From Escherichia phage arall, in the sequence record MN850584.1: 64,000 bases of DNA; one strand, written 5' to 3'. Below, in pieces: positions 13,752-32,092 of this stretch. The notes under the pieces were generated by a model. That model saw only the letters and a list, made by a program, of their open reading frames with translations. It ran no database searches and was not told the origin of the DNA. Each line of letters starts with the position of its first letter. The stretch's first letter is position 1. The position numbers and the translations under genes are program-made.

Positions 13752-13785
13752 ATAAATAAAGGAGGCTTTCGCCTCCTTTTATCAC

Positions 13786-14946
13786 TTAGTAAGAACGACC
13801 ACCAAACACATACTCTGTGTAGTTTTTACGTTCTTTGTTTTTAATAACAACTTCAATGTTGTTACCTTTATCATCGGTGAACATAAAGTGATAGCCGTCA
13901 CCACCCATTGTACGAATGTGTTTTTCATCATACGTTAGCAAGATACGGTCTACACCCCAGTAGTAGTCACCTTCTTCATCTTTATCTTCTACGGTAACAA
14001 TCCCTTCCATTTCAGGAAGATGCTCTTCACCTAGTTTATGGTCTACAGCTACAACATAACGATTACCGCTAAACAAACCTTGTGCTGTCATACCGTCAAT
14101 ATCGGTATCTGACGAAACATCTCCTGTACGATCTACACCGTTAACTTTCAGAAGTTTAACCTCTTTTGCAGCATAGCGGTGTTCAGTAATACTGATACCC
14201 ATCAATGCAAGTGCATCAGAGAATTTGTCATTAGGGTAACGGTTAAGTTCTTCTACTAATGACTGAACAATATCAAAGTTCAAATCCACGGAGAGATTAT
14301 AAAGCGTTTCAAAATCTGGTAAGAAGGCTTTGTTCTCCAGATTTTTAGCCAGATAATCATCCATAGTAGCTTTAGGTAGTTTCTTATAGCTAAAACTGTA
14401 GAAAATACGGCTAGGACGATTACGCAAAAATTCTGATACATAACCATCATTTTTAGTCAATACAAACAGTTTGTCGTAGCCACCAACACCATCCAGCAGG
14501 GTAAGCAAACCATCTTGTGCATCTTTTTCAGCATACAGTTTATCAAATTCATCGATCATAATCATCACAGGTTGTGTGATTTTAGACATAAAATTGATAA
14601 AGCCTTCACCATTAAAAGCACTACCGATAGAAATAGTAGGAATACCCATTTCACGAAGAGCAGAAGACAGCATTTTAGCTTGCAAAGTTTTACCGCTACC
14701 TTTCGTACCTTCAAGGAGAACACCTGTGTTTTTACCTTTGCGGCTAAGGAACGTTTTGATAATACGTTCTGATTTATCATCAGTATCACCGTATGTTACT
14801 GAAGGGACTTCCATATCGTTTTTAGGATACAGGAAGAACTCACCACTTTGAGTAACACCTACACCAAAAGTTCCTGCTGGAATTTCTTCAATATCTGTAC
14901 CAGATTTCTGACGCAGAAAGATTTGATTGCCGAATACTGTAAACAT
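13786..14946 (-). CDS. AAA+/P-loop ATPase-like protein (paralog of 30965-32092)
   Basis: Walker A GTKGSGKT and Walker B MIMIDEFD; clearly alignable with the plus-strand ORF at 30965-32092. Confidence 0.6.
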   Translation of the reverse strand: MFTVFGNQIFLRQKSGTDIEEIPAGTFGVGVTQSGEFFLYPKNDMEVPSVTYGDTDDKSERIIKTFLSRKGKNTGVLLEGTKGSGKTLQAKMLSSALREMGIPTISIGSAFNGEGFINFMSKITQPVMIMIDEFDKLYAEKDAQDGLLTLLDGVGGYDKLFVLTKNDGYVSEFLRNRPSRIFYSFSYKKLPKATMDDYLAKNLENKAFLPDFETLYNLSVDLNFDIVQSLVEELNRYPNDKFSDALALMGISITEHRYAAKEVKLLKVNGVDRTGDVSSDTDIDGMTAQGLFSGNRYVVAVDHKLGEEHLPEMEGIVTVEDKDEEGDYYWGVDRILLTYDEKHIRTMGGDGYHFMFTDDKGNNIEVVIKNKERKNYTEYVFGGRSY

Positions 14947-14966
14947 AGTTTTCTCCTCTATTTAAT

Positions 14967-15437
14967 TTAGTCAGATTCCCAAATGTTGTCTTTCTTAACC
15001 CACATTCGTTGATTATCTGAACCTCTATAACGTTTCGTTGTTGGTTGATTCATATCATACTTACCATCTATCACTATGTCAACCAGTTTTTTAATTTTCT
15101 CTGGAATTTCTTCAAAAAGATATCCTGTATATAAGACAATATCTTTTTTGTTTCCAAAACAATCTCTTACCTTCTCAAGAACATACTCTACAGTGTCAAT
15201 GTTCTCTTTGTCAAGAGGTTCACCACCTAAAACTGTTAATCCTTTAATGAAAGGTCGAGATAAATCTTCCAAGATAAGATCTAATGTTTCAGCAGTGAAC
15301 TCTTGTCCGTAGTTATACGACCAGGCTTTCTGGTTAAAGCAGCCACGGCAACCGTGGCTACAACCGCTCACCCACAAAGAGCATCTTACACCGTCACCGT
15401 TGAGCATGTCAACAGGTTCATATCCGGCGTAATTCAA
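14967..15437 (-). CDS. nrdG: Anaerobic ribonucleotide reductase activating protein (radical SAM)
   Basis: CSHGCRGC cysteine motif, about 156 aa, immediately downstream of nrdD. Confidence 0.85.
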   Translation of the reverse strand: MNYAGYEPVDMLNGDGVRCSLWVSGCSHGCRGCFNQKAWSYNYGQEFTAETLDLILEDLSRPFIKGLTVLGGEPLDKENIDTVEYVLEKVRDCFGNKKDIVLYTGYLFEEIPEKIKKLVDIVIDGKYDMNQPTTKRYRGSDNQRMWVKKDNIWESD

Positions 15438-16375
15438 AAGTGTTTCTCCCTTTCTAGTACCTCTTGCATTTTACCTTTATTATAAGGGCGAGAGTTAGGG
15501 GCAGAAAGGTATCCTGACACTCTTCTGATCACAGATATGGATTCTTCTTCGTGATTACCGCAACTTGGACACTCGAAGCCTTTAGCTGTTGCCTTAAATT
15601 CACCATGAAAACCACATTTGAAACACTGATCTACAGGTTGGTTCACGCCAAAATAAGGGATTTTGTTGTAGGCATAATCTACAAGAGTTTCCAGTGCTTG
15701 CAAGTTATTTTTAAGGTTCGGTGTTTCTACATAACCTATGTTCCCACCATTACTAATTTGTGCAAAACCTTCCTCATAATCCCACTTTTGGAACGGGGTA
15801 GTGTGCATCCATACAGGTTGATGGAAAGAGTTTGTCAAGTAGTCACGATCAATAGAGCCAGGATAGCGATCATTTAACGCTTTGGCAAATTTATAGCACA
15901 AGGATTCTGCTGGTGTTCCATACAAACTAAAAGCTAAACCAGAACGTTCTTTAAATGTGCAACAGATATCCTTCATATATTGAAGGATGTTTTTACCCAT
16001 TGCTTTTGGATTGGTGTTACCTGGGTATAAAATCTCCATAGCTTCTGCTAAACCTACATAACCGATACTAATAGAGGCATAACCACCTTCGAATAGCTTA
16101 CCAATCTCTTCATTAGCTTCTAGTCGAGCTAAAGCCCCTTCCATAAACAATGTAGGGTTTTGAGATGCTTTGGTATGTCTAATACGGTTAACACGTAGCA
16201 TATGTGCCTTATACGCCATCTCCATATGTTGTTCCAACAGTTCAGTAAATAAGATGCCCTTTTCACGGGACTCTGCTGCAATGATAGGTAAGTTTAAAGA
16301 AACTACGCCTAAGTTGAAACGACCATCATATTTTTCACCTTGCTCTGTTGCATAGTATGACAAGAAACTTCTACA
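15434..16375 (-). CDS. nrdD: Anaerobic ribonucleoside-triphosphate reductase, exon 2
   Basis: Begins CRSFL..., contains C-terminal zinc-ribbon cysteines (CFKCG...CPSCG) and ends with the RVSGYL glycyl-radical-region motif; upstream part of the track ORF is intron sequence. Confidence 0.85.
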   Translation of the reverse strand, partial: CRSFLSYYATEQGEKYDGRFNLGVVSLNLPIIAAESREKGILFTELLEQHMEMAYKAHMLRVNRIRHTKASQNPTLFMEGALARLEANEEIGKLFEGGYASISIGYVGLAEAMEILYPGNTNPKAMGKNILQYMKDICCTFKERSGLAFSLYGTPAESLCYKFAKALNDRYPGSIDRDYLTNSFHQPVWMHTTPFQKWDYEEGFAQISNGGNIGYVETPNLKNNLQALETLVDYAYNKIPYFGVNQPVDQCFKCGFHGEFKATAKGFECPSCGNHEEESISVIRRVSGYLSAPNSRPYNKGKMQEVLEREKHF

Positions 16376-17144
16376 CATTATGTTCAAAGTGGCTCGCAAG
16401 GCCACTCCCGCACCATTACGTGCTGCTGCATGTCACCATGCAGATCAGACTATATCTTCATGCTTAAAGCATGTCTACCATTTGGGGTGTCATAGGCTTA
16501 CACCCTACGCTGCTACATTCATCACAGCTAGTCGTTAGGCATTTCGTAACAGAACTCATAATCATAATTATTTGGTGCTCCGCGCTTTAAGATTGCAGAT
16601 ATTCTTTTTCTGTCCAACCCTAAAGCGTCAGCACAACATCTCAGACTTTTAAAGTAAAAAACTTCACCAGTAGCCTTATGAGTAGCTTTTACACTGTGAC
16701 ACCTTGTGTAGAAAGCATAACAGTTATTATCGTAACCCTCTTGCGTGTTGTCTGGACAAGATCCCCACTCAAGATTGTATACACTGTTGTCTTTCCTATT
16801 GTCACCTTTATGCTTCACATAAGGTAAATTGTCTGGATTGGGTAAAAACGCTTCAGCTACAAGTCTGTGCACCCGAAAGCAAACAGTTTTCTTGTTTTTA
16901 CGTATTCTGACAAGTTGGTATCCTGTGTTTATTTCTTCCCACGAGCGAAGGATTCTTTCATCCTTATACCTGGTACAATAAACATTTCCAAGCTCGTCAA
17001 TTTCATACCCTTCAAAATCACGAATTTGTTTTCTCATACCAGTACCCCCTTCTTCTGTGTTGGGAGTTCTGTTACGTTTAGCACGGGATTGTCTCGTTGA
17101 GAGTTCCCCCGTTTAGGCAGATTTTACATGAGCAGTTATAGTTT
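16376..17144 (-). mobile_element. Group I intron interrupting nrdD, carrying an HNH endonuclease ORF
   Basis: Exon 1 frame stops 2 codons after ...VTSMG; exon 2 resumes CRSFL; intron has the group I core recalled from T4 td-type introns (CTAAACGGGG...GACAATCCCGTGCTAAA), exon ends in U, intron ends in G. Confidence 0.75.
16528..17037 (-). CDS. HNH homing endonuclease (intron-encoded)
   Basis: VHRLVAEAF...VKHKGDNRKDNSVYNLEW matches the HNH_3 motif; lies inside the nrdD intron. Confidence 0.8.
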   Translation of the reverse strand: MRKQIRDFEGYEIDELGNVYCTRYKDERILRSWEEINTGYQLVRIRKNKKTVCFRVHRLVAEAFLPNPDNLPYVKHKGDNRKDNSVYNLEWGSCPDNTQEGYDNNCYAFYTRCHSVKATHKATGEVFYFKSLRCCADALGLDRKRISAILKRGAPNNYDYEFCYEMPND

Positions 17145-18002
17145 ACCCATGCTTGTGACGCGACCATCTGAAGATCCTGTAACTTCTTTGTTTAAAGGTA
17201 CAGAGATAAAATCAGGATAAATGCGTTCAGCACAACACTCCATTGCCAGTTGCTTCAAATCATAGTTTGGATCGCCAGCTTTCATGTTAACACCATCTTC
17301 CAAGAAGAAGATAACTTTAGGAAACACAGGAGTTACCCTATCTTTTCCTAATCCTTGTTTGTGCACCATTAGGTAGTTTTTAGTGATCATTCTACCAAAA
17401 GCAGAGGTATCCAAACCTAAACTAATTGTTATAAAAGGTGACTGACCATTTACACTCATTAGAGTGTTCACCTGGTAGATTAAAGTTTGCATTGCATCAT
17501 AGACCTGTTTATCTACCATACGCATAGCAATATCATAATCGCCAACATCGGCATATATTTTATTAAAACTTGCTTTAACGTATTGACTAAGCCCAGTATC
17601 AACATGTGCACAAGTTTGTCCACCATATTGGCTAGAAGCTACTGCTTGAATAATTTGAGTTAGGACAGTAGTCGCTACACCGATAGATTTTGGTTTTTCA
17701 ATATGTGCATTACCAATACGGAAACCGTTCTCAAGCATATCTTGGTAATTTACCAGGCAACAATTAGTTAAAGGTGAGAGTAAATAATCTAAATCGTGAA
17801 TGTGACCATACCCACTTTTATGCCATTCTGCCAGATCTTCCGGTAAAATATGGGTCATTGCCATGTGCTTGCTTAGGATACCTGCTAGTAAGTCTCGGTG
17901 AGTATTAACAATCATTGCAGGTTTGTTTGCATTTTCACGAGTAAATTCTTCGGATGTTTGTTCGAGGAATCCGATTACATCCTCATATAGTTTTTGGGTC
18001 AT
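17145..18002 (-). CDS. nrdD: Anaerobic ribonucleoside-triphosphate reductase, exon 1
   Basis: 286 aa N-terminal NrdD portion ending ...EVTGSSDGRVTSMG; exon1+exon2 about 600 aa, typical NrdD size. Confidence 0.85.
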
Positions 18003-18091
18003 TAATCCTCCGTGGAAAATAAAAGCCAGCTTAATGCTGGCTTTAGGGTGGATCTTTATTTTAAATCTTTTTCGTAAGATTGTCCTTGATC

Positions 18092-19042
18092 TTAGTCAAG
18101 GTTTTTGGTAATACGTGTACAACCGTCAGAAGTCAAACCGTCAACTTGAGTTTCCCAAGTGCCATGAATATTTCGGAACAATGTTGTTACACCTTTTGGT
18201 TCATTAATAATGATTGCCATAACAAGTTTAGGATCGATAACAGACATAATCTTTTCCTCAATACCCTCTGTAATAACATTATTGCGCACAATATTAATTG
18301 CATCTTCTTGTACAGTAAGAGCACTTACATTCTTAAGAGTATATACCTGCTGTGTAGTGTAAATGATACGAACATAGCTTACAGAACGAGTAGGCACAGG
18401 TTTACGCGGTCGGCGAAAACGTGGTTTTGGTGAAGATTCAGTCTTACTTTCATTTTTTGAATAATACTCCTCAAACAGTTTAGTAAATGTTTTTACATCA
18501 ACTACAAACCGATCTTTCCTATATGGAGAATTCTTATGTGCACCATTAATACCACTGTTTTCATCGAAGAAAGTAATGTTTTCTTCAGTTGAATACATTA
18601 GATAATGATCTGCATTTTTCCAATGTGGTTGTGGACAACGAGGATTACAAACGGAAAGCAGATAACTAATATCTTCTTCCGTGGCATCAGTATCCAGGAA
18701 ACACGTATTATGCACAGTCAGTTGTACTTTTTCAGCCATATCTTTTTCTTTATCCTCTTTAGCAAGATATTCAGTACGAATAATCTCCAGAAAACCTTCA
18801 GGTGTTACTTCCATAAATTTATATTCAGGATGAAGCTCCATATATTCAAATCCACAACCATCTAATTGCTGTAGGAAGTTAGGGTAGAAGAACAAATCAT
18901 TAACACTGTGAATCAGATCATTGATTTCTGCTTCAGTTGTGTAACCAAAACTCTTGTGAATTGCTTCGTTAAGAATATGCAGGATACCCATCTCTTCTGC
19001 TGCTTTTTTAACTTCCAGTTTATTAGCGTAAAATGCAATCAT
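18092..19042 (-). CDS. Hypothetical protein
   Basis: 316 aa ORF. Confidence 0.55.
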   Translation of the reverse strand: MIAFYANKLEVKKAAEEMGILHILNEAIHKSFGYTTEAEINDLIHSVNDLFFYPNFLQQLDGCGFEYMELHPEYKFMEVTPEGFLEIIRTEYLAKEDKEKDMAEKVQLTVHNTCFLDTDATEEDISYLLSVCNPRCPQPHWKNADHYLMYSTEENITFFDENSGINGAHKNSPYRKDRFVVDVKTFTKLFEEYYSKNESKTESSPKPRFRRPRKPVPTRSVSYVRIIYTTQQVYTLKNVSALTVQEDAINIVRNNVITEGIEEKIMSVIDPKLVMAIIINEPKGVTTLFRNIHGTWETQVDGLTSDGCTRITKNLD

Positions 19043-19059
19043 TATGTTCTCCTTCTAAA

Positions 19060-19494
19060 TTAGTTTAAAATTTCTTTGGCAATGGTAGAAGCAAGTTTTC
19101 CATCATATTGATTAGGATACTCTGCTTTAAGGTGTTTCATCATATCTGGCATTTTCTTGCCTGTCAAGGCAAATTCTTCAGCAATCGCTCGAAGGTCATC
19201 TTCAGATAGCATTTCTGGTAAATATTTTTCCAGGGTGGTGATATCCCGCATAGCTCGCTCACATTTGCTAATGGAGGCATTAACTTTCTTAAGCGAGTCT
19301 AGTTCCTCTTTAGCGTGTGCAATACCAATCTTAACAATGTTAATCATAATATCATCTTCTGATTTATTCAGATTTGCCTTTTGAGTACGAGCAAGGTCAA
19401 ACTCACCAATAATATTAGTTAACAAAGCAAAAGCACCCTTATCGGTTGTACGTGCTAAGATACGATCTGCTTTCATTTGTGTCACAATAGACAT
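19060..19494 (-). CDS. GatB/YqeY-domain protein
   Basis: 144 aa; YLPEMLSEDDLRAIAEE...DGKLASTIAKEIL resembles YqeY-family C-terminus. Confidence 0.55.
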   Translation of the reverse strand: MSIVTQMKADRILARTTDKGAFALLTNIIGEFDLARTQKANLNKSEDDIMINIVKIGIAHAKEELDSLKKVNASISKCERAMRDITTLEKYLPEMLSEDDLRAIAEEFALTGKKMPDMMKHLKAEYPNQYDGKLASTIAKEILN

Positions 19495-19506
19495 TCTATT
19501 CTCCTC

Positions 19507-20327: not shown

Positions 20328-20337
20328 TTTAACCCCC

Positions 20338-23112
20338 TTAGTTTACCAGTTTATTTATATCTGGTAAAAGATTTATTTCACCTAAGAAATCACCTTCACC
20401 TTCCTCTAGCCAACTCTCATATGCTTGTGCATGATTATAGTTACCATCAAAAGAATCTGCAACAAATTTTTCTACAGTTTTTCGAGATGTGCCAGCGCCA
20501 AATACACCAAGTTTAATACCATTGATCGGTAAAGTGGTGCTTGTGGGTACTTTCTCTGTTGCAACACGGTTGATATCTATAATCTCCTGTACGGTTGTAT
20601 TCCATTGTAAGCATTTAACACAACGGGTGTGCGCTACATACAGTAGGTTTCGCTCTGCCTCTTCCAGTCCTACCCATTCACCAGTCTTTTTATCATAGTT
20701 GGAAGGAAAATCATTAGCAACAATAACCTGATCCCACTCCAAACCTTTAGACTTGTGTGCTGTAGTAAGTGTGACTTTTGCTGTAGGAGAATTTCTATGC
20801 GTTCTAAGTGTATGTGCTATAGTGTTTGCCTTACCAGAAACTACGATGTTTAACAAGCGTTTAGCATCTGGATCAGCCTCTGCACACTCAACAAATTCAT
20901 CCCAGTCTGCGTAAGGTAATACAGTTTCATGTTTTACTTTCTCAATATCTCCTCTCCGAAGAGCATTAACACTATCTACCATAGAGATAAAATCCCTGGT
21001 ATCTACGTTAATAATAATTTCTTCCCCATCTGCAATACGATCCATTGCCTCCATAAGCAAGGTTAAATTCTTGCGAAAGATGATAGTGTAAGGTTTTGTA
21101 TAGTCTACAACATCTGATTTGTAGCTACCTACTACAGTATCAAAGCCTTTACCAACCAAAGGGTGACGCAAAGGTTCTTTATCGCTTAAAATCATATTGG
21201 CAATGTTTGCCACTTTGGGGCCAAAACGGAAGCAAGCAGTTAATGGAAGCTCTGCCCCATACTTAGCTGTTTCAATCATCATATTAGAGCTACCTCTAAA
21301 TTGATAAATGCAGTTGTGGCTAAGAATTTCATTGCCAAAGAAGTTAGCAGTATCCTCTACTTCAATATCATAATAGATACCCTCACTATCTACAATGTCC
21401 ACAATCTCTTCTGCCGTTACAGTATCACCATCTTTTACCAACACAGACATGCCTTTAAACAAACCCGCTGCCGGAATTAAGTTATATTTGGCACTGTTCA
21501 CAGAGGACATGCATTCTTTTAAAGATGCAAACGGAACTATTTCAAGGATCTTTTGTGCAAAACTCAATGCTTCACGATAAGAATTGAAATATTTACGTAC
21601 ACGGTAACGACCTTCCAATTTAGCAGCACTTACGCTTACACCTGCTTTAATCAGTGAAGAATAGATCGGCATTTCACTTTCTGTCCACTCAAAACTAACT
21701 TGTGTTCCTTTACAACTTTGTGCTCGCAAAGTCACTGTTAGCATTTTTCTTTCATCTACTGCACAATTGATGCTGTGCCAGTGTGGATAAGCAAAATGAT
21801 AATCTTTATCCTCTAAAAGTTTAAAACCATTTTGTCCGAATTGTTCAAAGATGTTATTGATCCTTTCTTGATTAATGCCGCGTGAACTTGCTTCAAATAC
21901 ACAAGTAGGAATGCCATATTGTAAACTGTATGCCATTTCTTTTTCCATAGCAGCTTCACGGTTTTCAACAATATCCAACACCCATAATTTCTGTGCTTTT
22001 TCAGAACGTGTACGTTGCCCCAGTTTAGAAAAACCTTCTTTATCATCGAATTTGTTAGTGATCCCTACTCGGAAACCTAAATCTTTCCTCCACATTAGGT
22101 ATACCACCATCTGATCATCTTTCAGAACATAGGATGAAGCCCAAATACGATGGTTATGTGTCATATCTAAAGTTTTACCTGTGGCAGTAATAATATTCCT
22201 ACCTTTTGTACGTGTAGATAAAGTCTTATTTGTTACTTTTCTAAATGTAACTTTACCATTAGAGTAAGACTCTACCTTATCACCGATTTGCAGGTCTTTC
22301 ATTGTAACCTGACCATTCTCGGTATTAAGTACCGTGTTTTCCGACACACATTGGAATTCATCGCCCACTACCACAATTTGTTTTGCAGATTTAGCATTTC
22401 GCAGAATAGACAAGAATGCAGGGTTAACATCCTGGAATTCATCACCAAAAATAATATCATAACCAAGATCAGCACCAGACAATTCAAACAATTTTACATA
22501 GGTGTCATGCGTCATCAAAGTATCTGTATTAGGATCAATGCGCTCTCGCCACAATTGTTTTGCATACTTAACTACTTCTGTAATTAGTTTGTGTTCGTTA
22601 ATACCTTTTCTTTTAATATCTGCAAGATGTACACTAGGAAAATGTTTACGGCTGATAAAAGGATCATCCGAAAATTCAAACTTACCTACGGTTTGTTTGA
22701 TCATTAAACCAATCATAGCACGAGTTAACAGTGTTTTCCCTCGTTTATCAATAAGATTATTAATCTTAAATTTCTTTGCTATCTCGCTACCTGTACCTGC
22801 AACGTTAACATACTGTCCTTCTGGTCGTGACAGTTTTGCACGTAAACGATGATCCAGGAATTGATAGCAAATAGAATGCAATGTACGGCATTCTACATTT
22901 AGTGGCATCTTACGTCGTGCTTCTTCTGCCATGCTTTTATTGAAAGCTAAGTAAAGAATGCGATCTTCTGTACTGTTAGCCAGCAAATAAAGTGTTGACG
23001 TTTTGCCTGATCCAGATTTAGCTTGGATAGTTAAAAAGCGATGGTCTGGAAAAGCCTCCTTAATAGCTGTTTGCTCTTCTGTTGGAGTGAAGCTCAACTC
23101 TTTCTTAGCCAT
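20338..23112 (-). CDS. UvrD/Rep-like SF1 DNA helicase interrupted by an intein
   Basis: Walker A AKSGSGKTS, motif II FGDEFQD, motif III VGDEFQ|CIYQFRG split by insert, motif VI TTAHKSKGLEWD; likely ATG start at 23112. Confidence 0.8.
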   Translation of the reverse strand: MAKKELSFTPTEEQTAIKEAFPDHRFLTIQAKSGSGKTSTLYLLANSTEDRILYLAFNKSMAEEARRKMPLNVECRTLHSICYQFLDHRLRAKLSRPEGQYVNVAGTGSEIAKKFKINNLIDKRGKTLLTRAMIGLMIKQTVGKFEFSDDPFISRKHFPSVHLADIKRKGINEHKLITEVVKYAKQLWRERIDPNTDTLMTHDTYVKLFELSGADLGYDIIFGDEFQDVNPAFLSILRNAKSAKQIVVVGDEFQCVSENTVLNTENGQVTMKDLQIGDKVESYSNGKVTFRKVTNKTLSTRTKGRNIITATGKTLDMTHNHRIWASSYVLKDDQMVVYLMWRKDLGFRVGITNKFDDKEGFSKLGQRTRSEKAQKLWVLDIVENREAAMEKEMAYSLQYGIPTCVFEASSRGINQERINNIFEQFGQNGFKLLEDKDYHFAYPHWHSINCAVDERKMLTVTLRAQSCKGTQVSFEWTESEMPIYSSLIKAGVSVSAAKLEGRYRVRKYFNSYREALSFAQKILEIVPFASLKECMSSVNSAKYNLIPAAGLFKGMSVLVKDGDTVTAEEIVDIVDSEGIYYDIEVEDTANFFGNEILSHNCIYQFRGSSNMMIETAKYGAELPLTACFRFGPKVANIANMILSDKEPLRHPLVGKGFDTVVGSYKSDVVDYTKPYTIIFRKNLTLLMEAMDRIADGEEIIINVDTRDFISMVDSVNALRRGDIEKVKHETVLPYADWDEFVECAEADPDAKRLLNIVVSGKANTIAHTLRTHRNSPTAKVTLTTAHKSKGLEWDQVIVANDFPSNYDKKTGEWVGLEEAERNLLYVAHTRCVKCLQWNTTVQEIIDINRVATEKVPTSTTLPINGIKLGVFGAGTSRKTVEKFVADSFDGNYNHAQAYESWLEEGEGDFLGEINLLPDINKLVN
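21313..22350 (-). mobile_element. Intein (about 346 aa) within helicase motif III
   Basis: Insert starts with Cys (CVSENTVL...), has block B TxxH (MTHNH) and ends ...FFGNEILSHN followed by Cys; flanks rejoin as GDEFQ-CIYQFRG. Confidence 0.7.
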
Positions 23113-23113
23113 T

Positions 23114-23590
23114 TCAACCTCTCTTAATTTGTTTAACAAGCATAGGAACAAAATCTCGTTTTAAAATTTGTTCAATAATATGATCAGGTAGCTGTTGGAA
23201 ATTATAATTAAAAGCTACTGTCTCACCTTTAGGTGTTTCTACCCGCACATATAACATGTTACGAAGTTTATCCACTTGTGCTGTGTATTCTAAACCATGT
23301 AATTGATGCATTGCAAACATCAAATCATCAGTTTCAGTTTGGAATCTATCATTTGCTTGCATTAAGGACAAGGTAAAAGGTAGATTTTCCCTAAGAGCCA
23401 CCTTCTTAGGAACTAGTGAAGGAAAATACTCACCAATAACTTCCTGTGTAAGCTGGATACACTCTTTTTCAAGTTGGTTTTGTTCCTTAAGTTCACAAAC
23501 ACTTTTTTGTAAAGTGTTAACCTCTTTTTGCAAAGCTGCTAGTTGAGCACTTAACTTTCTTTTTTGATTACGACCAAAACGTTTAGACAT
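23114..23590 (-). CDS. Hypothetical coiled-coil protein
   Basis: 158 aa ORF. Confidence 0.5.
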   Translation of the reverse strand: MSKRFGRNQKRKLSAQLAALQKEVNTLQKSVCELKEQNQLEKECIQLTQEVIGEYFPSLVPKKVALRENLPFTLSLMQANDRFQTETDDLMFAMHQLHGLEYTAQVDKLRNMLYVRVETPKGETVAFNYNFQQLPDHIIEQILKRDFVPMLVKQIKRG

Positions 23591-23598
23591 ATTTCCCC

Positions 23599-24114: not shown

Positions 24115-24135
24115 TATATTTTCCTTATTGGTTTG

Positions 24136-24865: not shown

Positions 24866-24866
24866 A

Positions 24867-25580: not shown

Positions 25581-25581
25581 T

Positions 25582-26332: not shown

Positions 26333-26342
26333 AGTCTACTCC

Positions 26343-26507
26343 TTAACGTACAAAGTTAACCTCTGCTTCTTTCAGCTTTGACACTTCTACATAACCACCA
26401 TGATCATCTTTAATCCATTCTTTTCCTTTACGGATGATAACAGGATATGTAGAGTGAGTAAGTTTAGGTACAGATCTTTTTGTTTTAGTGATAGAAATGT
26501 TTTGCAT
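26343..26507 (-). CDS. Small hypothetical protein (about 54 aa)
   Basis: ATG preceded by AAGGAG at 6 nt spacing; below ORF-track size cutoff; translated by eye. Confidence 0.35.
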   Translation of the reverse strand: MQNISITKTKRSVPKLTHSTYPVIIRKGKEWIKDDHGGYVEVSKLKEAEVNFVR

Positions 26508-26567
26508 AGTAGTCTCCTTAGTAAATTTTACAAAGAGTCTAGATTATTTAGTAGATAGAGTCAATAA

Positions 26568-26834
26568 CTAATTACTGTTAGATCTGTATTCTGTCTTCCA
26601 TTCACAATGGTAAACTTCAACAGGTTCTAACTTCCAATGTTCAGGAACTAATTCAGGACAATATCTACAAAAGAGAAATAGATAGATAACTAAGACAGGT
26701 ATTAAATAGTAAAATGGTATACGATCATAACCATACTTACGAGATAACATGTAGACGTATAGATAGGGTATAACAATTAATCCTATAACTATAAGTAAGA
26801 AGAGAAGTATAAACCTTAGTGTAGTAACATCCAT
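26568..26834 (-). CDS. Small membrane protein
   Basis: 88 aa, two hydrophobic helices. Confidence 0.45.
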   Translation of the reverse strand: MDVTTLRFILLFLLIVIGLIVIPYLYVYMLSRKYGYDRIPFYYLIPVLVIYLFLFCRYCPELVPEHWKLEPVEVYHCEWKTEYRSNSN

Positions 26835-26998
26835 AGTATTCTCCTATACAGTAATATACTCTGTTCCTGCCCCTCCATGAGTGACAGGAACAATATCTAT
26901 AGAGAATACTAACTCGCTTCGCTCGTCACCTTTCAGGTTTAGGGTAGCATGTTTTTCTGAAAAAGTCAATACTCTCCACAAAACTTTACAAAATACTT

Positions 26999-27271
26999 TT
27001 ACATAGGTACAACAGAGTCTGTTTTGAAGTCGTACATATGATTTACACCTGTGATTTTTGACATAGAGATTGCACGTTTAGCACCTGCAATTACCTGGTC
27101 TGTCTTCTTAATCTCTTCACGGAACTTACGTACAGTTAAAGAGAAGAAACGATGATCCATCCATTGACGATTCACACGATCACGCTTGAAGTGACGGAAA
27201 TCTTCAATCTGTTTATTGCGCAATCGGCGCAGTACATGCAATAGTTGATAGTAAGGGTGTTTATTTTTCAT
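26999..27271 (-). CDS. Hypothetical basic protein
   Basis: 90 aa ORF. Confidence 0.45.
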   Translation of the reverse strand: MKNKHPYYQLLHVLRRLRNKQIEDFRHFKRDRVNRQWMDHRFFSLTVRKFREEIKKTDQVIAGAKRAISMSKITGVNHMYDFKTDSVVPM

Positions 27272-27274
27272 AAA

Positions 27275-27703
27275 TTATTCTCCAAATCGAAAATCGTCAA
27301 TATCATCAAACCATACACAATGGCGAGTCCTTTCTTTTTCTGTTGCAGACATTGTTTCAACAGCTTTAGGACTAAGCACAACAGGAATGTAACGAACAGG
27401 TCGTTCATAATAGTAGCCATACTTTTCTGTATTAGCTGCCTCAAAGACTTTACGGCGTTCTTCAAGATCTTCTATGGTGAATCCTACCATATAACCATCA
27501 TGTTTGCTACCCCATCCTTCCTCACTTTCAACAATCGGGATATAAAAGCCGTTACGAGTCCCTGACACTGGTTTTTCTTGAGCCTGAAGGCAAGCCTCCC
27601 ATCCTGCTTTAAAGACGTTATAGAGCGATTTACGCACATTATGAGTGCCGCTTTCGCTTGCTGGATATAGTTCATTAAATTTGTCTTGAATTTGTTGTGT
27701 CAT
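27275..27703 (-). CDS. Hypothetical protein
   Basis: 142 aa ORF. Confidence 0.5.
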   Translation of the reverse strand: MTQQIQDKFNELYPASESGTHNVRKSLYNVFKAGWEACLQAQEKPVSGTRNGFYIPIVESEEGWGSKHDGYMVGFTIEDLEERRKVFEAANTEKYGYYYERPVRYIPVVLSPKAVETMSATEKERTRHCVWFDDIDDFRFGE

Positions 27704-27846
27704 ACTCGCCCCTTAGTGATTATTTGACCAGCTAAACAAATAGCTTGTAGTACAATAAAGAAGTAGCCTAATTTTACACTACCCAATACCCAAAATGCAA
27801 TGTTTGCAAACAAACAAAAAGCAATATTAAGTCTAAAGAATAACAT

Positions 27847-28047
27847 TTAATCCCCTTCATATTTAGGTAAAGGCATATATGCCACAATAGGAGGGTAATC
27901 AAAGTGAAAATGATGGTTCACCACAATAATCTTACCAGACATACTTTTATGCACTTCACAATACCCTTTTTCACCATCTTCCATTACCACCACATACTCA
28001 CCTAGTGGGATATCGTATGGATCTTCTACTTTTACCCATTCTGTCAT
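27847..28047 (-). CDS. Hypothetical protein
   Basis: 66 aa ORF. Confidence 0.4.
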   Translation of the reverse strand: MTEWVKVEDPYDIPLGEYVVVMEDGEKGYCEVHKSMSGKIIVVNHHFHFDYPPIVAYMPLPKYEGD

Positions 28048-28058
28048 TTTGGAAACAC

Positions 28059-28313
28059 CTATTGTCCATCTTCATGCATTTGTAGTAAAGTTTCACAGAT
28101 TTCATACACATCTTGGTATGTTACAACTGAGAGATCAGAGTCTTGATCTTCGACAAGCATAGCACAAAGAGCTTTAATATCAATACCTTTACAATGTTCC
28201 GTAGCTATACGGTACATTTCACCATCCTCCCAAACAATTGGTTGCGGAAGCAAAACGTCTGTACCATCTTCACAAGTTACAATGTAATCTGCAATATTAT
28301 CACGAATTTTCAT
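28059..28313 (-). CDS. Hypothetical acidic protein
   Basis: 84 aa ORF. Confidence 0.4.
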   Translation of the reverse strand: MKIRDNIADYIVTCEDGTDVLLPQPIVWEDGEMYRIATEHCKGIDIKALCAMLVEDQDSDLSVVTYQDVYEICETLLQMHEDGQ

Positions 28314-28567
28314 TGTACTACCCCCTTAAATCCAGATGTGCTGCCAGTTTTAACTTTTGCTTTAAGATGTTCCAACTCTACCATAGGTGTTGCTACTTGT
28401 ATAGGATTTTCCTCAACCTTATGAATATAATATTCATAATAAGCATACTTACCAATAGAGTGCAGATACTTAATTGCATGTTCAGGCGAATCTGCTTCGA
28501 CATACCCTAAATCTTTTGTGGTACGACCTTCGCAATCACCTTCGGTAGTTACATGATAAAGTGTCAT
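28310..28567 (-). CDS. Hypothetical protein
   Basis: 85 aa ORF. Confidence 0.4.
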   Translation of the reverse strand: MTLYHVTTEGDCEGRTTKDLGYVEADSPEHAIKYLHSIGKYAYYEYYIHKVEENPIQVATPMVELEHLKAKVKTGSTSGFKGVVQ

Positions 28568-28716
28568 AAAACCTCCTCATAGTAAGGTAAAGCCTTGATC
28601 AGTTGTTCTGAAGTGCCATTTTGCACCCACGTAACCCCGTTGTCAACAGAAACATACCCTTTTTTGTCAATAAATTTACGCAGACAGCCAGTGAACTTAT
28701 TTTTGTAGATAACCAT
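28564..28716 (-). CDS. Small hypothetical protein (about 50 aa)
   Basis: ATG with AAGGAG 5 nt upstream; stop overlaps next ATG (ATGA); translated by eye. Confidence 0.35.
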   Translation of the reverse strand: MVIYKNKFTGCLRKFIDKKGYVSVDNGVTWVQNGTSEQLIKALPYYEEVL

Positions 28717-28728
28717 GTTCACTCCTTG

Positions 28729-29082
28729 TTACATCCACAGATTATGAAAATACTTAGCAAACAAAATGCGACCTTCTAAACGATCTTGCCGCTGTTTTTC
28801 ATTAACCTCTTCTGGTGGAGTTGAGTCCTTAAAAGAAGACTCCATTTTTTCAAGAATTTCTAACCAGTGTTCTGCTGCTCGTTCTTCCATATAAGGTAGA
28901 TAGTCACCTTTAGCGTGTGGGTACATCCGACGAAGTAACCCACTAGGAATTTTAACATTGTTTGTGGCTATCACTTTTGCACGATATGCAGAAAGTGCAT
29001 TGTAGATCAGTTTACTTAGTGTCACATCTAGATCAAGAAGATCACTCTCTTCAAATTGAATTTCATCGTGTACAATTTTCAT
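28729..29082 (-). CDS. Hypothetical protein
   Basis: 117 aa ORF. Confidence 0.45.
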   Translation of the reverse strand: MKIVHDEIQFEESDLLDLDVTLSKLIYNALSAYRAKVIATNNVKIPSGLLRRMYPHAKGDYLPYMEERAAEHWLEILEKMESSFKDSTPPEEVNEKQRQDRLEGRILFAKYFHNLWM

Positions 29083-29093
29083 ATCACTCTCCT

Positions 29094-29384
29094 TTATAGT
29101 AAAACACGTTTTGCACTGCTTGGTGCATTGTCGAACATGTTTATCACTTTGTCAAGTTTGTGTATTAACTCGTTCGTAATGTTCCACTCTTTGTATGATC
29201 TCCATTGTTTCTTATTCTCACCTACCTGGTGTAAAACTTTGATGGGTGCATTCAAACGTACATTGCGTTCTTTGTCCTCTTCAAAAGAGGCTAACCATTT
29301 TTCGTTATGCCCATGAACAGCAATAATAATGCCAAAACCATCAAAAGTTTCTGTAATATTCTTAGTTGCTAGTGTGATGTTCAT
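29094..29384 (-). CDS. Hypothetical protein
   Basis: 96 aa ORF; first gene of the minus block at the strand-switch. Confidence 0.45.
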   Translation of the reverse strand: MNITLATKNITETFDGFGIIIAVHGHNEKWLASFEEDKERNVRLNAPIKVLHQVGENKKQWRSYKEWNITNELIHKLDKVINMFDNAPSSAKRVLL

Positions 29385-29443
29385 ATCTAACCTCTTTTGT
29401 TACGATGCACACAGAGTACCAGAAATTAATTTCAGATCAAGTA

Positions 29444-29471
29444 TTGACATACTGTTTTATTGTGCTAATCT
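29444..29471 (+). promoter_or_regulatory. Sigma70-like promoter (TTGACA-16-TAATCT) at the divergent strand-switch
   Basis: Read from sequence; drives plus-strand block starting 29504. Confidence 0.4.
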
Positions 29472-29503
29472 TAATGCATACACAAATGAGAGGAGATAAA
29501 CGA

Positions 29504-30055
29504 ATGCAAAACACCAATCTGACTTGGATAGAAGCCAAAGAAGCAATGTTAAAAGGCAAACGCGTTAAACATAAATACTTTTGCGAAGGAGAATGGTTTG
29601 AAATGCGTAACCGATCCCTTGTAGATGAAAAAGGGAATGACATGGAACAATGGTTCAAAAATGAAATTTGGCAGGGGACAGGTTGGTCTATAGTTGAAGA
29701 GCAGCCTAGCCCAAGCGCACTGTTTAGCCCTATTATGTATCGCGTTATCGGTGCTTTAGTTGTTGATCACGGAATTGCAGTGGAAAAAGAATGCTGGGAA
29801 AAGGTATCTTTTTTCAACCTGGCTTCTTATGCAAAAAGCCATATGCACTTGTTTGAAGAAGGGGATGAATTTGTTCTTCGTATGCGATATGGCAAAGAAT
29901 TCAGATTACCACTTGATAATGATGTAGACACTGTTGTAAAATGGTTAGCAGAGCATTACGCTTACGATGCAATTTGTGGTCGCAGCTTCGGCAACGAACG
30001 CTGGGACATGATTTGTGAAAAATATGATTTTGAGCCAGAGTACGGAGTTTTATAA
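29504..30055 (+). CDS. Hypothetical protein with possible N-terminal DUF2829 (Tad2-like) segment
   Basis: ATG at 29504 with GAGGAG upstream; LTWIEAKEAMLKGKRVKHKYFCEGEWF resembles the W-x-EA-x-K-G-K-x-V-R pattern of DUF2829; weak. Confidence 0.5.
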   Translation: MQNTNLTWIEAKEAMLKGKRVKHKYFCEGEWFEMRNRSLVDEKGNDMEQWFKNEIWQGTGWSIVEEQPSPSALFSPIMYRVIGALVVDHGIAVEKECWEKVSFFNLASYAKSHMHLFEEGDEFVLRMRYGKEFRLPLDNDVDTVVKWLAEHYAYDAICGRSFGNERWDMICEKYDFEPEYGVL

Positions 30056-30306
30056 TGTTAAGTATCAAACCTAAAATGATAACAGAAGACGAAGCAGACT
30101 TTATTTTCAAATGTGGACGTGTATGGAGAGAATTCACAAAAGGGAATGAAGTGGTTGTTGTTGTCGAACACAAGATATCTATCCAGGATCTGTTTGGACA
30201 ATATGTTGATGTTATTAAATTAGGTATTGACAAGGGTTTAGTTGAGGTGTTAACATTAGATCAAGTTGAAGCAGAGCACCTCGATAAAGTGGTGGTTGAA
30301 TTTTAA
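30055..30306 (+). CDS. Hypothetical protein
   Basis: 83 aa ORF. Confidence 0.45.
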   Translation: MLSIKPKMITEDEADFIFKCGRVWREFTKGNEVVVVVEHKISIQDLFGQYVDVIKLGIDKGLVEVLTLDQVEAEHLDKVVVEF

Positions 30307-30326
30307 AATACAGACGGGAGAAAGGT

Positions 30327-30500
30327 ATGAGTTTCTTTGTTACAGTATTTATGGCTATCTGGATTGTAGTCTCACTCGTTCTTTTCCTGGTGGGTTGTCT
30401 GGAAGAGATTAAGAAAGCGGTTATTTGCGGTTTCTTTGGCTTTATTATCTCTCCTGCCTGGATGTGGTTCTTCATTATGATTGGTTTCCTTAAAAGGTAA
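30327..30500 (+). CDS. Small membrane protein (57 aa)
   Basis: ATG after AGGT; two hydrophobic segments; below track cutoff. Confidence 0.35.
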   Translation: MSFFVTVFMAIWIVVSLVLFLVGCLEEIKKAVICGFFGFIISPAWMWFFIMIGFLKR

Positions 30501-30514
30501 GTGAGGAATAAAGA

Positions 30515-30952
30515 ATGAGTAAAACAAACGCAATCGCAGATAAAGCAACGGATGTACTTCTGAACATGGTTAACGTCACTATTCAAACAATGAGTGATGT
30601 TGTGGAGTTTGGAAAACAACAAATTCCAGAAGTAATCCATCAATTATTAGTGTGGAAAGCAGTATCCGCAGGTTTATGGCAACTTTTTAGTATTTGCTTT
30701 ATGTTTATTACTTTTATTGCTGTGCGGAACCTCGTAAAAGCAATTAAAGATAAAGAATGCCTGTGGTCACGAGATCGCTATGGTGAAGTATCTGCTTTAC
30801 CTATTGTTGGTCTTGTTGTCTGTGCTTTCTTTTTCTTTTTAGGATTTGTTATTTTCTTTTCGAATTTTGATTGGCTAAAAATTATTATTGCACCAAAAGT
30901 GTATCTGATTGAATTTGCTGCTGATTTAATTCGTTCATCTCAACAAAGATAA
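30515..30952 (+). CDS. Membrane protein
   Basis: 145 aa with two long hydrophobic helices. Confidence 0.5.
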   Translation: MSKTNAIADKATDVLLNMVNVTIQTMSDVVEFGKQQIPEVIHQLLVWKAVSAGLWQLFSICFMFITFIAVRNLVKAIKDKECLWSRDRYGEVSALPIVGLVVCAFFFFLGFVIFFSNFDWLKIIIAPKVYLIEFAADLIRSSQQR

Positions 30953-30964
30953 AAGGGGGTTAAA

Positions 30965-32092
30965 ATGAAATACACGATTTATGGTGATATTGTAAGTGTA
31001 AATAAAGATATGGGCGTGGAATCTAACTATCTTCCACCTGGATTCTATACTGTTAGTCGTGATCCCCTTGGCAATTACTTTTTAAGCCGTGGTAATCTAA
31101 CAGGTGTACCGGATGTTCTGTATGGTGAAACAGAAAAACGAGCAAATCACGTTATTCGTACATTCCATCGCCGGAGTGCACAAGGTAAAAATACAGGTTT
31201 GCTCCTGACAGGAACTAAGGGCAGTGGTAAAACTATGTTAGCCAAACTCATTAGTCGTGACCTTGTAGAAGAAGGTATTCCAACTATTATGGTTACTCAA
31301 GCCTACAGTGATGCTAATTTCATTGAACTTATTAGCAAGATCACAGACAAAGCAGTCATTATTTTTGACGAGTTTGATAAAGTATATGAGAAGAAACAAG
31401 ATCAAGAAGCACTTCTCACTTTGTTAGATGGTACTGGCAGTGGTAATAAACTGTTTATTCTGACTAAAAACAGTGGTTTTATCTCTGAATTCTTTTTAAA
31501 TCGTCCTAGTCGTGTGTTTTATAATTTTAATTATGATAAAATCTCACTAGAAACTATGATTGACTATTTAGATAAAAACCTGGATAACAAAGCACACTTT
31601 GATAATTTCCAAAGACTTTGGGATGTAAGTTTAGAGTTGTCCTTTGATGTGATCCAAGGTATAGTAGAAGAACTTAATTTCTATCCTGATTTATCCTTTA
31701 AAGAATGCATCTCTATGATGGGCGTTTCTTTGGGTGGTGGTAATAAATGGGATATCAGCAGCGTTGTTATTAATGGAAAACTTCAGAAAGTTAGCTGGGT
31801 ATCTAGTTGGCATAACTTCACACCTGCAATCTTTTTAGGTGGTTCGTGCACACTAGACGTGTACTTGTCATCTCCAAGTGATGCAGACTCTAAAGAAGCC
31901 CTTGCTAATAGCTCTTACGTGGTTTTTGATGATGAAGGCGATGCTCGAATTCCATTGAATGCGACAAAAATGAAAGCAGATCTTATTACAGGCGGTAAAA
32001 TCGTTGTGTTTAGTGATGATCCAGAAGATTCTTTCCGTATTGTTCTGGAACCAACTATCACCAATGGTGCAACTTTGGCAAGTGTGTTTTAA
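30965..32092 (+). CDS. AAA+/P-loop ATPase-like protein (paralog of 13786-14946)
   Basis: Walker A GTKGSGKT, Walker B IIFDEFD; collinear similarity to minus-strand paralog. Confidence 0.6.
   Translation: MKYTIYGDIVSVNKDMGVESNYLPPGFYTVSRDPLGNYFLSRGNLTGVPDVLYGETEKRANHVIRTFHRRSAQGKNTGLLLTGTKGSGKTMLAKLISRDLVEEGIPTIMVTQAYSDANFIELISKITDKAVIIFDEFDKVYEKKQDQEALLTLLDGTGSGNKLFILTKNSGFISEFFLNRPSRVFYNFNYDKISLETMIDYLDKNLDNKAHFDNFQRLWDVSLELSFDVIQGIVEELNFYPDLSFKECISMMGVSLGGGNKWDISSVVINGKLQKVSWVSSWHNFTPAIFLGGSCTLDVYLSSPSDADSKEALANSSYVVFDDEGDARIPLNATKMKADLITGGKIVVFSDDPEDSFRIVLEPTITNGATLASVF

What the first reader, a model, noticed from the sequence alone, without database searches (positions are those of the whole stretch)
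13786..32092. Paralogous AAA+-like ATPases on opposite strands
The ORFs at 13786-14946 (minus) and 30965-32092 (plus) share Walker A GTKGSGKT, Walker B (M/I)IDEFDK and a long collinear similarity (LLTLLDG..G...LF(V/I)LTKN.G..SEF..NRPSR.FY.F.Y) but diverge at the C-terminus. Duplicated ATPases with different C-terminal domains suggest sub-functionalised partners or a heteromeric machine.
Basis: seen in the sequence. Interest (0 to 1): 0.45.

Follow-up and report, generated by a model that had tools for sequence, protein, structure and literature searches.

The report
Two old AAA ATPase paralogues, phi92-like phage
A phi92-like E. coli phage carries two anciently diverged copies of a widespread but uncharacterised phage AAA ATPase; both are already annotated as "ATPase" in public genomes, so this is an ordinary finding with an open functional question.

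Summary
ORF A (13786-14946, minus, 386 aa) and ORF B (30965-32092, plus, 375 aa) are 47% identical over 254 residues (E 2e-81). The similarity covers an N-terminal beta domain and the whole AAA module, not only the P-loop.

The window is a Justusliebigvirus (phi92-like myovirus). The genes equal phi92 gp190 and gp221, both already annotated "ATPase / putative Zn metalloprotease".

The C-terminal parts are not different domains. They are the same family-wide beta-rich domain, diverged to about 20% identity. It evolves much faster than the ATPase core in both lineages.

Both proteins belong to PHROG 2376, a large viral family (at least 3,366 clusters at 50% identity). They are classic-clade AAA ATPases: every catalytic motif is intact, the pore-loop aromatic is present, and the best solved matches are Bcs1, Rpt and FtsH. 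There is no protease domain.

B is the ancestral copy, syntenic across the subfamily. A is an extra single-gene insertion found only where B is also present (59 of 59 records).

Most likely both are ring-forming protein remodellers with different client specificities. A mixed ring is possible but unsupported. Function remains untested. Interest is low to moderate.

The parts
13786..14946 (-). ATPase A (386 aa plus stop), equal to phi92 gp190. This is the lineage-specific extra copy.
   Evidence: ORF list; translation; 98.7-100% identical to deposited Justusliebigvirus proteins; PHROG 2376 E 5.8e-104; AlphaFold pLDDT 91.2.
14782..14946 (-). A, N-terminal small beta domain with linker (residues 1-55; five strands in residues 2-42).
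   Evidence: DSSP on the model. 31% identical to the same part of B.
14197..14781 (-). A, AAA module. The large subdomain is residues 56-190 and the four-helix lid is residues 191-250. Motifs: Walker A G80-T87, pore-loop-1 F111-N-G113, Walker B D132-E133, sensor-1 N166, SRH arginines R177 and R180.
13789..14196 (-). A, C-terminal beta-rich domain (residues 251-386) ending in an aromatic tail (..RSY).
   Evidence: Model; hhalign; family alignment A3; only 29-51% identical between A-type orthologues whose AAA large subdomain is 79-91% identical.
30965..32092 (+). ATPase B (375 aa plus stop), equal to phi92 gp221. This is the ancestral copy, syntenic across Stephanstirmvirinae.
   Evidence: ORF list; translation; PHROG 2376 E 6.6e-108; AlphaFold pLDDT 91.5; orthologue at the same locus in Phapecoctavirus ESCO5.
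30965..31129 (+). B, N-terminal small beta domain with linker (residues 1-55).
   Evidence: DSSP on the model.
31130..31723 (+). B, AAA module (residues 56-253). Motifs: Walker A G83-T90, pore-loop-1 Y114-S-D116, Walker B D135-E136, sensor-1 N169, SRH arginines R180 and R183.
   Evidence: Pfam PF00004 E 1.5e-9; invariant columns; Foldseek PDB best match Bcs1, E 3.6e-10.
31724..32089 (+). B, C-terminal beta-rich domain (residues 254-375) ending in an aromatic tail (..SVF).
   Evidence: Model; hhalign; family alignment A3.
13758..13779 (-). Terminator-like hairpin directly after the stop codon of A. It overlaps the ribosome-binding site of the next gene. This is a consensus match only.
   Evidence: The number of such sites in the region is not above the shuffled expectation.

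Best explanation
A and B are two anciently diverged paralogues of one phage-specific family of stand-alone classic-clade AAA ATPases (PHROG 2376). Each consists of a small N-terminal beta domain, a complete AAA module, a fast-evolving C-terminal beta-rich domain and a short aromatic C-terminal tail.

Shown: the homology, the shared architecture, intact catalytic residues in both copies, the family's size and viral distribution, and the copy history. B is the ancestral copy, syntenic across Stephanstirmvirinae. A is an extra one-gene insertion, found in Justusliebigvirus and its Klebsiella-phage relatives.

Inferred: like their nearest structural relatives (Bcs1, proteasomal Rpt/PAN, FtsH, p97), they assemble into rings. 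They hydrolyse ATP at subunit interfaces using the conserved arginines. They pull on or remodel a protein client with the conserved pore-loop aromatic residue. The rapidly diverging C-terminal domain, and to a lesser degree the N-terminal domain, chooses the client. The two copies most likely act as separate homo-oligomers on different clients early or mid infection. The client is unknown.
For: Identity of the genes:
- 47% identity over 254 residues, E 2e-81.
- Both match PHROG 2376 end to end.
- The genome is a phi92-like Justusliebigvirus and the genes equal gp190 and gp221.

Architecture and mechanism:
- Confident models (pLDDT 91) show the same three-domain layout.
- Walker A, Walker B, sensor-1 Asn and both SRH arginines are invariant in 141 and 144 family members, including both clades.
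- The pore-loop-1 aromatic is present in 121 of 141 members, including A (F111) and B (Y114).
- The C-terminal domains are homologous.
- The C-terminal domain evolves 3-5 times faster than the core. A against its Klebsiella-phage orthologue is 91% identical in the AAA large subdomain and 50% in the C-domain. B against its orthologue is 84% and 62%.

Distribution and history:
- The family has 3,366 clusters at E<=1e-30, nearly all full length at 350-400 aa.
- Full-length structural matches appear in many phage lineages.
- B is syntenic in Phapecoctavirus, where no ATPase sits at the A locus.
- A occupies the same locus in a Klebsiella phage.
- All 59 records with an A-type copy hold exactly two copies; 140 other records hold one.
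Against: No experiment on any family member was found. Oligomeric state, ATPase activity and substrate are therefore all inferred.

The middle pore-loop residue is polar rather than hydrophobic, and the B clade replaces the canonical Gly with Asp. This could mean a non-threading mode.

Gene neighbourhoods are not conserved and give no client.

In Staphylococcus phage 6ec and a crAss-like phage the homologue sits in the replication/recombination module, which would fit a DNA-related role equally well.

Tree support for the branching order of A, B and the intermediate clade is only 60-65%.
Confidence: 0.55

Rival explanations
1. A and B co-assemble into one hetero-oligomeric AAA ring, as Pex1/Pex6, Rpt1-6 or the m-AAA protease do. 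In this reading the duplication created obligate partners.
For: A-type copies never occur without a second copy (59 of 59 records). Both keep all catalytic and interface arginine residues. Hetero-hexamers are common among the nearest structural relatives (Rpt subunits, FtsHi).
Against: B-type copies occur alone in 140 phage records, including the sister genus Phapecoctavirus and Citrobacter phage Tr1, so B works without A. The genes are 16 kb apart on opposite strands in different gene blocks. The copies are as distant from each other as from jumbo-phage homologues, about 47% in each case. No interface co-variation was tested.
Confidence: 0.15
2. The proteins are DNA-replication or recombination accessory ATPases, such as loader-type AAA+ proteins acting on a helicase, clamp or junction, rather than protein unfoldases.
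For: There are weak PHROG hits to clamp loader and DnaC-like loader families (E 1e-5 to 1e-8) and to Hda/DnaC-like NCBIfam models far below cut-off. Homologues sit beside a Holliday-junction resolvase, primase, RecJ and Mre11 in Staphylococcus phage 6ec and crAss cr115_1. A lies in a block with nrd genes and a UvrD-like helicase. Some sources name homologues 'DNA replication protein'.
Confidence: 0.15
3. They are FtsH-like ATP-dependent zinc metalloproteases, as the public annotations 'putative ATPase or Zn metalloprotease' and 'FtsH-like protease' suggest.
For: The AAA module resembles that of FtsH. The annotations appear in phi92 and PaulScherrer.
Against: No HExxH motif in either protein. 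No Peptidase_M41 or any protease family hit in Pfam. The region after the AAA module is a beta-rich domain, not the helical M41 fold. No membrane-protein family or transmembrane-type match appeared in any search or model; a dedicated transmembrane predictor was not run.
Confidence: 0.02
4. Copy A is a redundant or decaying duplicate with no distinct role.
For: A is absent from the sister genus, so it is dispensable for the basic life cycle. One record (JLBYU50) holds only 80% of it.
Against: A is 98.7-100% conserved in the 53 full-length E. coli-type records listed; a 54th, JLBYU50, holds only 80% of it. It is retained at 71-75% identity in 5 Klebsiella-phage records at the same locus. All catalytic residues are invariant across the A clade.
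Confidence: 0.05

Closest known systems
PHROG 2376 'ATPase', that is phi92 gp190 and gp221 and their homologues in Stephanstirmvirinae, Rak2/GAP32-like jumbo phages, and Aeromonas, Proteus, Bacillus, Lactococcus, Staphylococcus and crAss-like phages
   Same: Full-length membership: E 1e-104 and 1e-108 over 359 and 357 of 363 profile positions. The proteins are identical or nearly identical to deposited ones. Full-length structural matches exist in BFVD.
   Different: Nothing differs; this is the family. It has a label but no known function.
Bcs1 (mitochondrial AAA translocase of the folded Rieske protein)
   Different: Only 16-18% identity. Bcs1 has a transmembrane anchor and a Bcs1-specific N-domain and forms heptamers. 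The phage proteins have neither of those domains. They carry a distinct N-terminal beta domain and an extra C-terminal beta domain. Their ring size is unknown.
Proteasomal AAA ATPases (Rpt1-6, PAN, Mpa) and FtsH/FtsHi
   Same: Classic AAA module, SRH arginines and aromatic pore loop. A beta domain precedes the ATPase. Foldseek alignments of 320-345 columns to Rpt subunits extend beyond the AAA module. Paralogous subunits exist in these systems.
   Different: No coiled coil, no M41 protease domain, no HbYX motif in the canonical form (A ends RSY, B ends SVF). The C-terminal beta domain has no counterpart. E. coli has no 20S proteasome to dock on.
Bacterial Trip13/Pch2-like ATPase of CBASS operons (PDB 6p8v)
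   Different: 14% identity, a different N-domain, and no HORMA partner nearby. PADLOC models give no significant hit.

Membership tests
Classic-clade AAA ATPases (Pfam PF00004) | Pfam AAA model above gathering score | tested here: met
   A scores 29.4 bits and B 38.9 bits against a cut-off of 21.2.
Classic-clade AAA ATPases (Pfam PF00004) | Walker A GxxGxGK(T/S) and Walker B hhhhDE | tested here: met
   GTKGSGKT in both. MIMIDE in A and IIFDE in B. These residues are invariant in 141 and 144 homologues.
Classic-clade AAA ATPases (Pfam PF00004) | Sensor-1 Asn and a second region of homology with two arginines (RPxR) | tested here: met
   N166/N169. NRPSR with R177 and R180 in A, R180 and R183 in B. 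All are invariant.
Classic-clade AAA ATPases (Pfam PF00004) | Pore-loop-1 aromatic-hydrophobic-Gly between beta2 and alpha2 | tested here: inconclusive
   The aromatic is conserved (F/Y/W in 121 of 141; A F111, B Y114). The middle residue is polar. Gly is present in A (and 95 of 141 members) but is Asp in the B clade.
Classic-clade AAA ATPases (Pfam PF00004) | Nearest solved folds are classic-clade members | tested here: met
Classic-clade AAA ATPases (Pfam PF00004) | Assembly into a ring with inter-subunit ATP sites | not testable with these tools
   Only monomer models could be made. No multimer prediction is available.
FtsH-like Zn metalloprotease (the public annotation) | Peptidase M41 domain with the HExxH zinc site | tested here: not met
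   No HExxH. No M41 hit in Pfam at E<=0.1. The C-terminal part is predicted beta-rich.
FtsH-like Zn metalloprotease (the public annotation) | N-terminal transmembrane anchor | not tested
   No transmembrane predictor was run. The models show a short beta domain at the N-terminus, not long helices.
Clamp-loader or DnaC/DnaA-type loader AAA+ | Family-level profile match. Also clade features: collar domain and SRC motif for clamp loaders, or the initiator-specific helical insert for DnaC/DnaA. | tested here: not met
   PHROG loader families hit only at E 1e-5 to 1e-8, against 1e-104 for PHROG 2376. NCBIfam Hda, DnaC and IstB models score 16-30 bits against cut-offs of 189-215. RFC, DnaA and Cdc6 structures rank below classic AAA members and have larger rmsd. 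The clade-specific inserts were not inspected residue by residue.
PHROG 2376 (phage 'ATPase' family) | Full-length profile match | tested here: met
   A matches residues 1-376 to profile positions 2-359 of 363. B matches residues 1-367 to positions 1-357 of 363.
Known anti-phage defence ATPases (PADLOC) | Significant match to a defence-system model | tested here: not met
   The best hit is mad8 at E about 1e-3 and 16-17 bits, on the P-loop region only.

The most novel reading that the evidence does not exclude
PHROG 2376 proteins could be phage-encoded unfoldases whose rapidly evolving C-terminal domain captures host proteins, for example defence or stress-response factors, for ATP-driven disassembly. 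Phages with two copies (Justusliebigvirus, and independently some Lactobacillus phages) would then carry two targeting specificities. That would make this a large, unrecognised class of enzymatic host-takeover or counter-defence effectors. The evidence does not exclude this: the domain diverges fastest between phages of different host genera, there is no conserved phage partner gene, and B sits at the start of a block of small, mostly unannotated genes (a typical early, host-takeover-like arrangement; no expression data were examined).
Probability: 0.15. Interest if true: 0.7.

Novelty: new member of a known kind. Interest (0 to 1): 0.3.

Why it matters
As a genome feature it matters little. 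The two genes are already deposited and labelled "ATPase" in dozens of phi92-like genomes, and duplicate AAA genes are common.

The useful outcomes are corrections and a lead:
- The "Zn metalloprotease / FtsH-like protease" annotation is unfounded.
- The two C-termini are one fast-evolving domain, not two different ones.
- The family is very large (thousands of 50% clusters), apparently virus-restricted in the named and long-contig members seen here, structurally well predicted and wholly uncharacterised.
- The natural pair (ancestral B, accessory A) in a tractable E. coli phage that is part of the BASEL collection is a convenient system to find the family's client by knockouts, domain swaps and substrate trapping.

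Tried and rejected
- Conserved partner gene: none found. Neighbourhoods were read in Phapecoctavirus ESCO5, Serratia jumbo phage BF, Citrobacter Tr1, four metagenomic contigs, Staphylococcus 6ec, crAss cr115_1 and Bacillus Deep Blue. The large neighbours share no family.
- The gene right after B is a CapR/T5orf172 homing-endonuclease-like gene. It is absent at that place in Tr1, so it was rejected as a partner.
- Link of A to nrdDG: rejected. The Klebsiella-phage orthologue sits at the same locus without nrdDG.
- Informative domain fusions among longer family members: none.
- Identifying the C-terminal domain by sequence: a profile of 23 C-domains against PDB sequences gave nothing below E 0.3. 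Pfam found nothing in that region.
- AFDB50 fold search: the library was unavailable.
- Defence-system and NCBIfam libraries: no meaningful hit.
- Literature: six searches found no paper on these genes or the family, and one paper that was read mentions only the terminase ATPase.
- Promoter and terminator scan: counts were not above the shuffled expectation, so no statement on transcription units is made.
- One bootstrap attempt timed out and was redone with a faster distance method.
- Borderline phmmer hits of B residues 201-291 to the influenza NS1 effector domain (E 8e-4) were judged chance.
Full report
**What the window is.** The 20-kb stretch around the finding is 97-98% identical to Justusliebigvirus genomes (phage alia, phi92, PaulScherrer and others). 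These are 145-150-kb myoviruses of subfamily Stephanstirmvirinae. ORF A (13786-14946, minus strand, 386 aa) corresponds to phi92 gp190. ORF B (30965-32092, plus strand, 375 aa) corresponds to phi92 gp221. In the phi92 RefSeq record both carry the same note, [quoted passage not shown]. In phage PaulScherrer, A is "hypothetical protein" and B is "FtsH-like protease". So the gene pair is already deposited and labelled, but I found no functional work on it.

**Checking the observation.** Both ORFs exist as stated. BLASTP gives 47% identity and 70% positives over 254 residues with two gaps, E 2e-81. The aligned part runs from residue 2 to about 255. It includes an N-terminal beta domain, the AAA large subdomain and the helical lid, so the similarity is not limited to the P-loop. 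The quoted motifs are present. The only slip is that B's Walker B reads IIFDEFDK, not (M/I)IDEFDK. There is no third copy in the window. The last 120-135 residues show no BLAST similarity.

**The C-terminal parts are one domain, not two.**
- Both proteins match the PHROG 2376 profile almost to its end (359 and 357 of 363 positions).
- BLAST with each C-terminus alone finds only its own clade.
- Profile-profile comparison of the two clades' C-termini is collinear over 107 columns (E 2.9e-4, probability 40%).
- Each matches the C-terminus of an intermediate clade (368-aa proteins P0041-P0046) at 95-96% probability, E 7.5e-9 and 6.7e-8.
- The AlphaFold models (pLDDT 91.2 and 91.5, pTM 0.78 and 0.79) show the same order of elements after the lid. 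That order is a long strand, one or two short strands, a short helix, a strand, a variable acidic loop, four strands and a poorly ordered terminal helix.
- A MAFFT alignment of 23 C-termini from across the family, including A and B, is collinear. It shares an N(G)/D(G) turn, an NPL-like motif, an acidic loop, a G-x-h-x-F strand and a terminal aromatic tail.
- I could not superpose the two domains, because no coordinates or further prediction jobs were available. Fold identity is therefore inferred from these lines of evidence.

**What kind of ATPase.**
- Pfam gives only PF00004 above threshold.
- In alignments of 141 and 144 homologues the invariant residues are Walker A (G80, G83, G85, K86 in A numbering), Walker B (D132, E133), K136, the LLTLLDG segment (L148, D152, G153), sensor-1 N166 and the two arginines of NRP(S/G)R (R177, R180). 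Y183, F224, D225 and N235 are invariant too.
- These are hallmarks of the classic AAA clade; LLTLMDG in p97 and RPGR in FtsH are comparisons from my own knowledge.
- The pore-loop-1 position holds F, Y or W in 121 of 141 members, with Gly two residues later in 95 of 141. The A clade reads F-N/S-G and the B clade Y-S/T-D.
- Foldseek with the B model again ranks Bcs1 first (E 3.6e-10), followed by Rpt subunits, YjoB and FtsH.
- Neither protein has an HExxH motif or any protease-family hit. The "Zn metalloprotease / FtsH-like protease" label is therefore unsupported.
- Defence-system models and NCBIfam give nothing meaningful.

**Size and spread of the family.** A profile search over 1.84 billion cluster representatives finds 3,366 clusters at E<=1e-30. 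The best 150 are nearly all 350-400 aa and match the profile end to end. tblastn in the phage collection finds homologues in many lineages. These include Phapecoctavirus, Rak2/GAP32/BF-like jumbo phages, 90-kb Salmonella, Proteus and Aeromonas phages, Bacillus Bastille-like phages, Lactococcus 949-like phages, Lactobacillus, Brochothrix A9, Staphylococcus 6ec and crAss-like phages. BFVD holds full-length structural matches (380-430 aligned columns) from many of these, all without a functional name. The one "bacterial" named hit sits on a 371-kb contig and groups with the jumbo-phage proteins.

**History of the two copies.**
- A and B are as far from each other (47% in the core) as each is from jumbo-phage homologues, so the split is old.
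- In a bootstrapped neighbour-joining tree of the 252-column core, the A clade, the jumbo-phage clade and intermediate clade C each have 100% support, and the B clade has 89%.
- A groups with clade C in 60% of replicates. A+C+B, together with two small B-like groups, form one clade in 65%. That clade plus the jumbo phages is recovered in 80% (full tree).
- B's orthologue in Phapecoctavirus ESCO5 (64-67% identical) sits at the same locus and is followed by the same endonuclease-like gene. Citrobacter phage Tr1 and a clade-C metagenomic phage also have a single copy at a B-like locus.
- At the A locus, ESCO5 has the small gene directly next to nrdG with no ATPase between them. Klebsiella phage phi1_175008 has an A-type gene at the same place relative to the small gene and the hydrolase, but has no nrdDG there.
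- A is therefore a one-gene gain or loss in an otherwise collinear block, and it is not tied to nrdDG.
- In the phage collection all 59 records with an A-type gene (at least 71% identity) contain exactly two copies, and the other 140 records at E<=1e-20 contain one. At the looser cut-off a Lactobacillus phage also shows two places, which suggests independent duplications.

**Rates by domain.** Identities are listed in the order N-domain / AAA large subdomain / lid / C-domain.
- A against its Klebsiella-phage orthologue P0002: 84 / 91 / 88 / 50%.
- A against P0038: 47 / 81 / 73 / 31%.
- B against P0061: 76 / 84 / 83 / 62%.
- B against P0087: 71 / 87 / 77 / 34%.
- A against B: 31 / 55 / 47 / 19%.
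The C-terminal domain is thus the fast-evolving part in both lineages, followed by the N-domain. This pattern is expected for a surface that recognises a variable partner. Within E. coli Justusliebigvirus both proteins are nearly invariant.

**Mechanism proposed.**
- Shown: two catalytically intact classic-AAA paralogues with the same three-domain layout.
- Inferred from the clade: assembly into a ring, ATP hydrolysis at subunit interfaces through R177/R180, and engagement of a polypeptide by the pore-loop aromatic. The N-domain would lie on the entry face, as the OB ring does in PAN/Rpt. Some Rpt alignments extend to 320-345 columns. The C-domain, attached to the lid, would lie at the periphery as a client or adaptor site.
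- The family-wide aromatic C-terminal tail (last residue F, Y or W in 76 of 141; A ends RSY, B ends SVF) may be a docking or packing element. That is speculation.
- The two copies most plausibly serve different clients.
- A mixed ring cannot be excluded, but B's independence in single-copy phages and the separate genomic positions argue against an obligate heteromer.
- A DNA-related loader role is the main alternative, because of the gene's position in replication/recombination modules in 6ec and a crAss-like phage. The sequence and fold evidence point away from loader clades.

**Context that gave no answer.** Neighbours of family members differ from phage to phage, and longer family members carry no recognisable extra domain. 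The gene after B is built of CapR repeats plus a T5orf172 domain (PHROG 681 "endonuclease"). It is most likely a mobile homing-type gene. The consensus promoter and terminator scan is not above background.

**Verdict.** The claim of different C-terminal domains is wrong, and the heteromer idea is unsupported. This is a new instance of a known kind (classic AAA ATPase) that is already annotated in public genomes, and its function is unknown. Interest is modest. It rests on the size of the uncharacterised family and on the convenience of the natural A/B pair for experiments.

Noticed in passing
window 15434-18002 (-): The anaerobic ribonucleotide reductase gene nrdD is split into two ORFs. ORF 17136-18002 covers NRDD model positions 1-263. 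ORF 15434-16405 covers positions 263-562 plus the glycyl-radical domain. Between them lies an HNH / I-HmuI-like endonuclease ORF at 16528-17037. The gene is intact in phage PaulScherrer and split differently in phi92. Rfam finds no intron at gathering score, so whether this is an intron, an intein-less split gene or a disruption is open.
   Followed up: partly
window 20338-23151 (-): The UvrD/Rep-like helicase (937 aa) carries a Hint/intein-type insert at about residues 267-613, between the helicase N- and C-domains. This agrees with the 'intein-containing' annotation in PaulScherrer.
   Followed up: partly
window 32167-33360 (+): The gene directly after ATPase B has four CapR repeats, a treble-clef zinc finger and a T5orf172 domain (PHROG 681 'endonuclease'). 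It is probably a mobile homing-type nuclease. It is present at this place in ESCO5 but absent in Citrobacter phage Tr1.
   Followed up: partly
window about 14300-14400, inside gene A (phi92 record 117581-117668): The phi92 record annotates a 'hypothetical tRNA' antisense within gp190. ARAGORN finds no tRNA anywhere in the window, so that feature is probably spurious.
   Followed up: partly
window about 29000-30500: GC skew changes sign here, negative to the left and positive to the right, with the cumulative minimum near 29-30 kb. This coincides with the point where gene orientation switches from minus to plus. It could reflect transcription direction or a replication landmark.
   Followed up: no
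C-termini of A (13789-13830) and B (32050-32089) and of family members: The family shares a short C-terminal tail rich in aromatics, typically ..Y-N-W-x-x-A-F-COOH. The last residue is F, Y or W in 76 of 141 members. The tail is predicted with low confidence (pLDDT 50-59). It may be a docking or packing motif.
   Followed up: no
window 34000-58000 (+): By comparison with the PaulScherrer annotation, there is a long run of about 70 very small plus-strand genes. Most are hypothetical and many are separated by gaps of about 90 bp. This is a typical early or host-takeover block, and ATPase B sits at its upstream edge.
   Followed up: no
ATPase B residues 201-291 (window 31565-31837): phmmer against PDB sequences gives borderline hits (E about 8e-4) to the influenza A NS1 effector domain. 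This is most likely chance, since the region spans the AAA lid helices and the first C-domain strands. It was not examined further.
   Followed up: no
locus L015 (Klebsiella phage phi1_175008) 1-6143; phage JLBYU50 record OK272470.1: The Klebsiella relative keeps the A-type ATPase at the same locus but lacks nrdD/nrdG beside it. In phage JLBYU50 the A copy covers only 80% of the query, which may be a natural truncation of the C-terminal domain.
   Followed up: no
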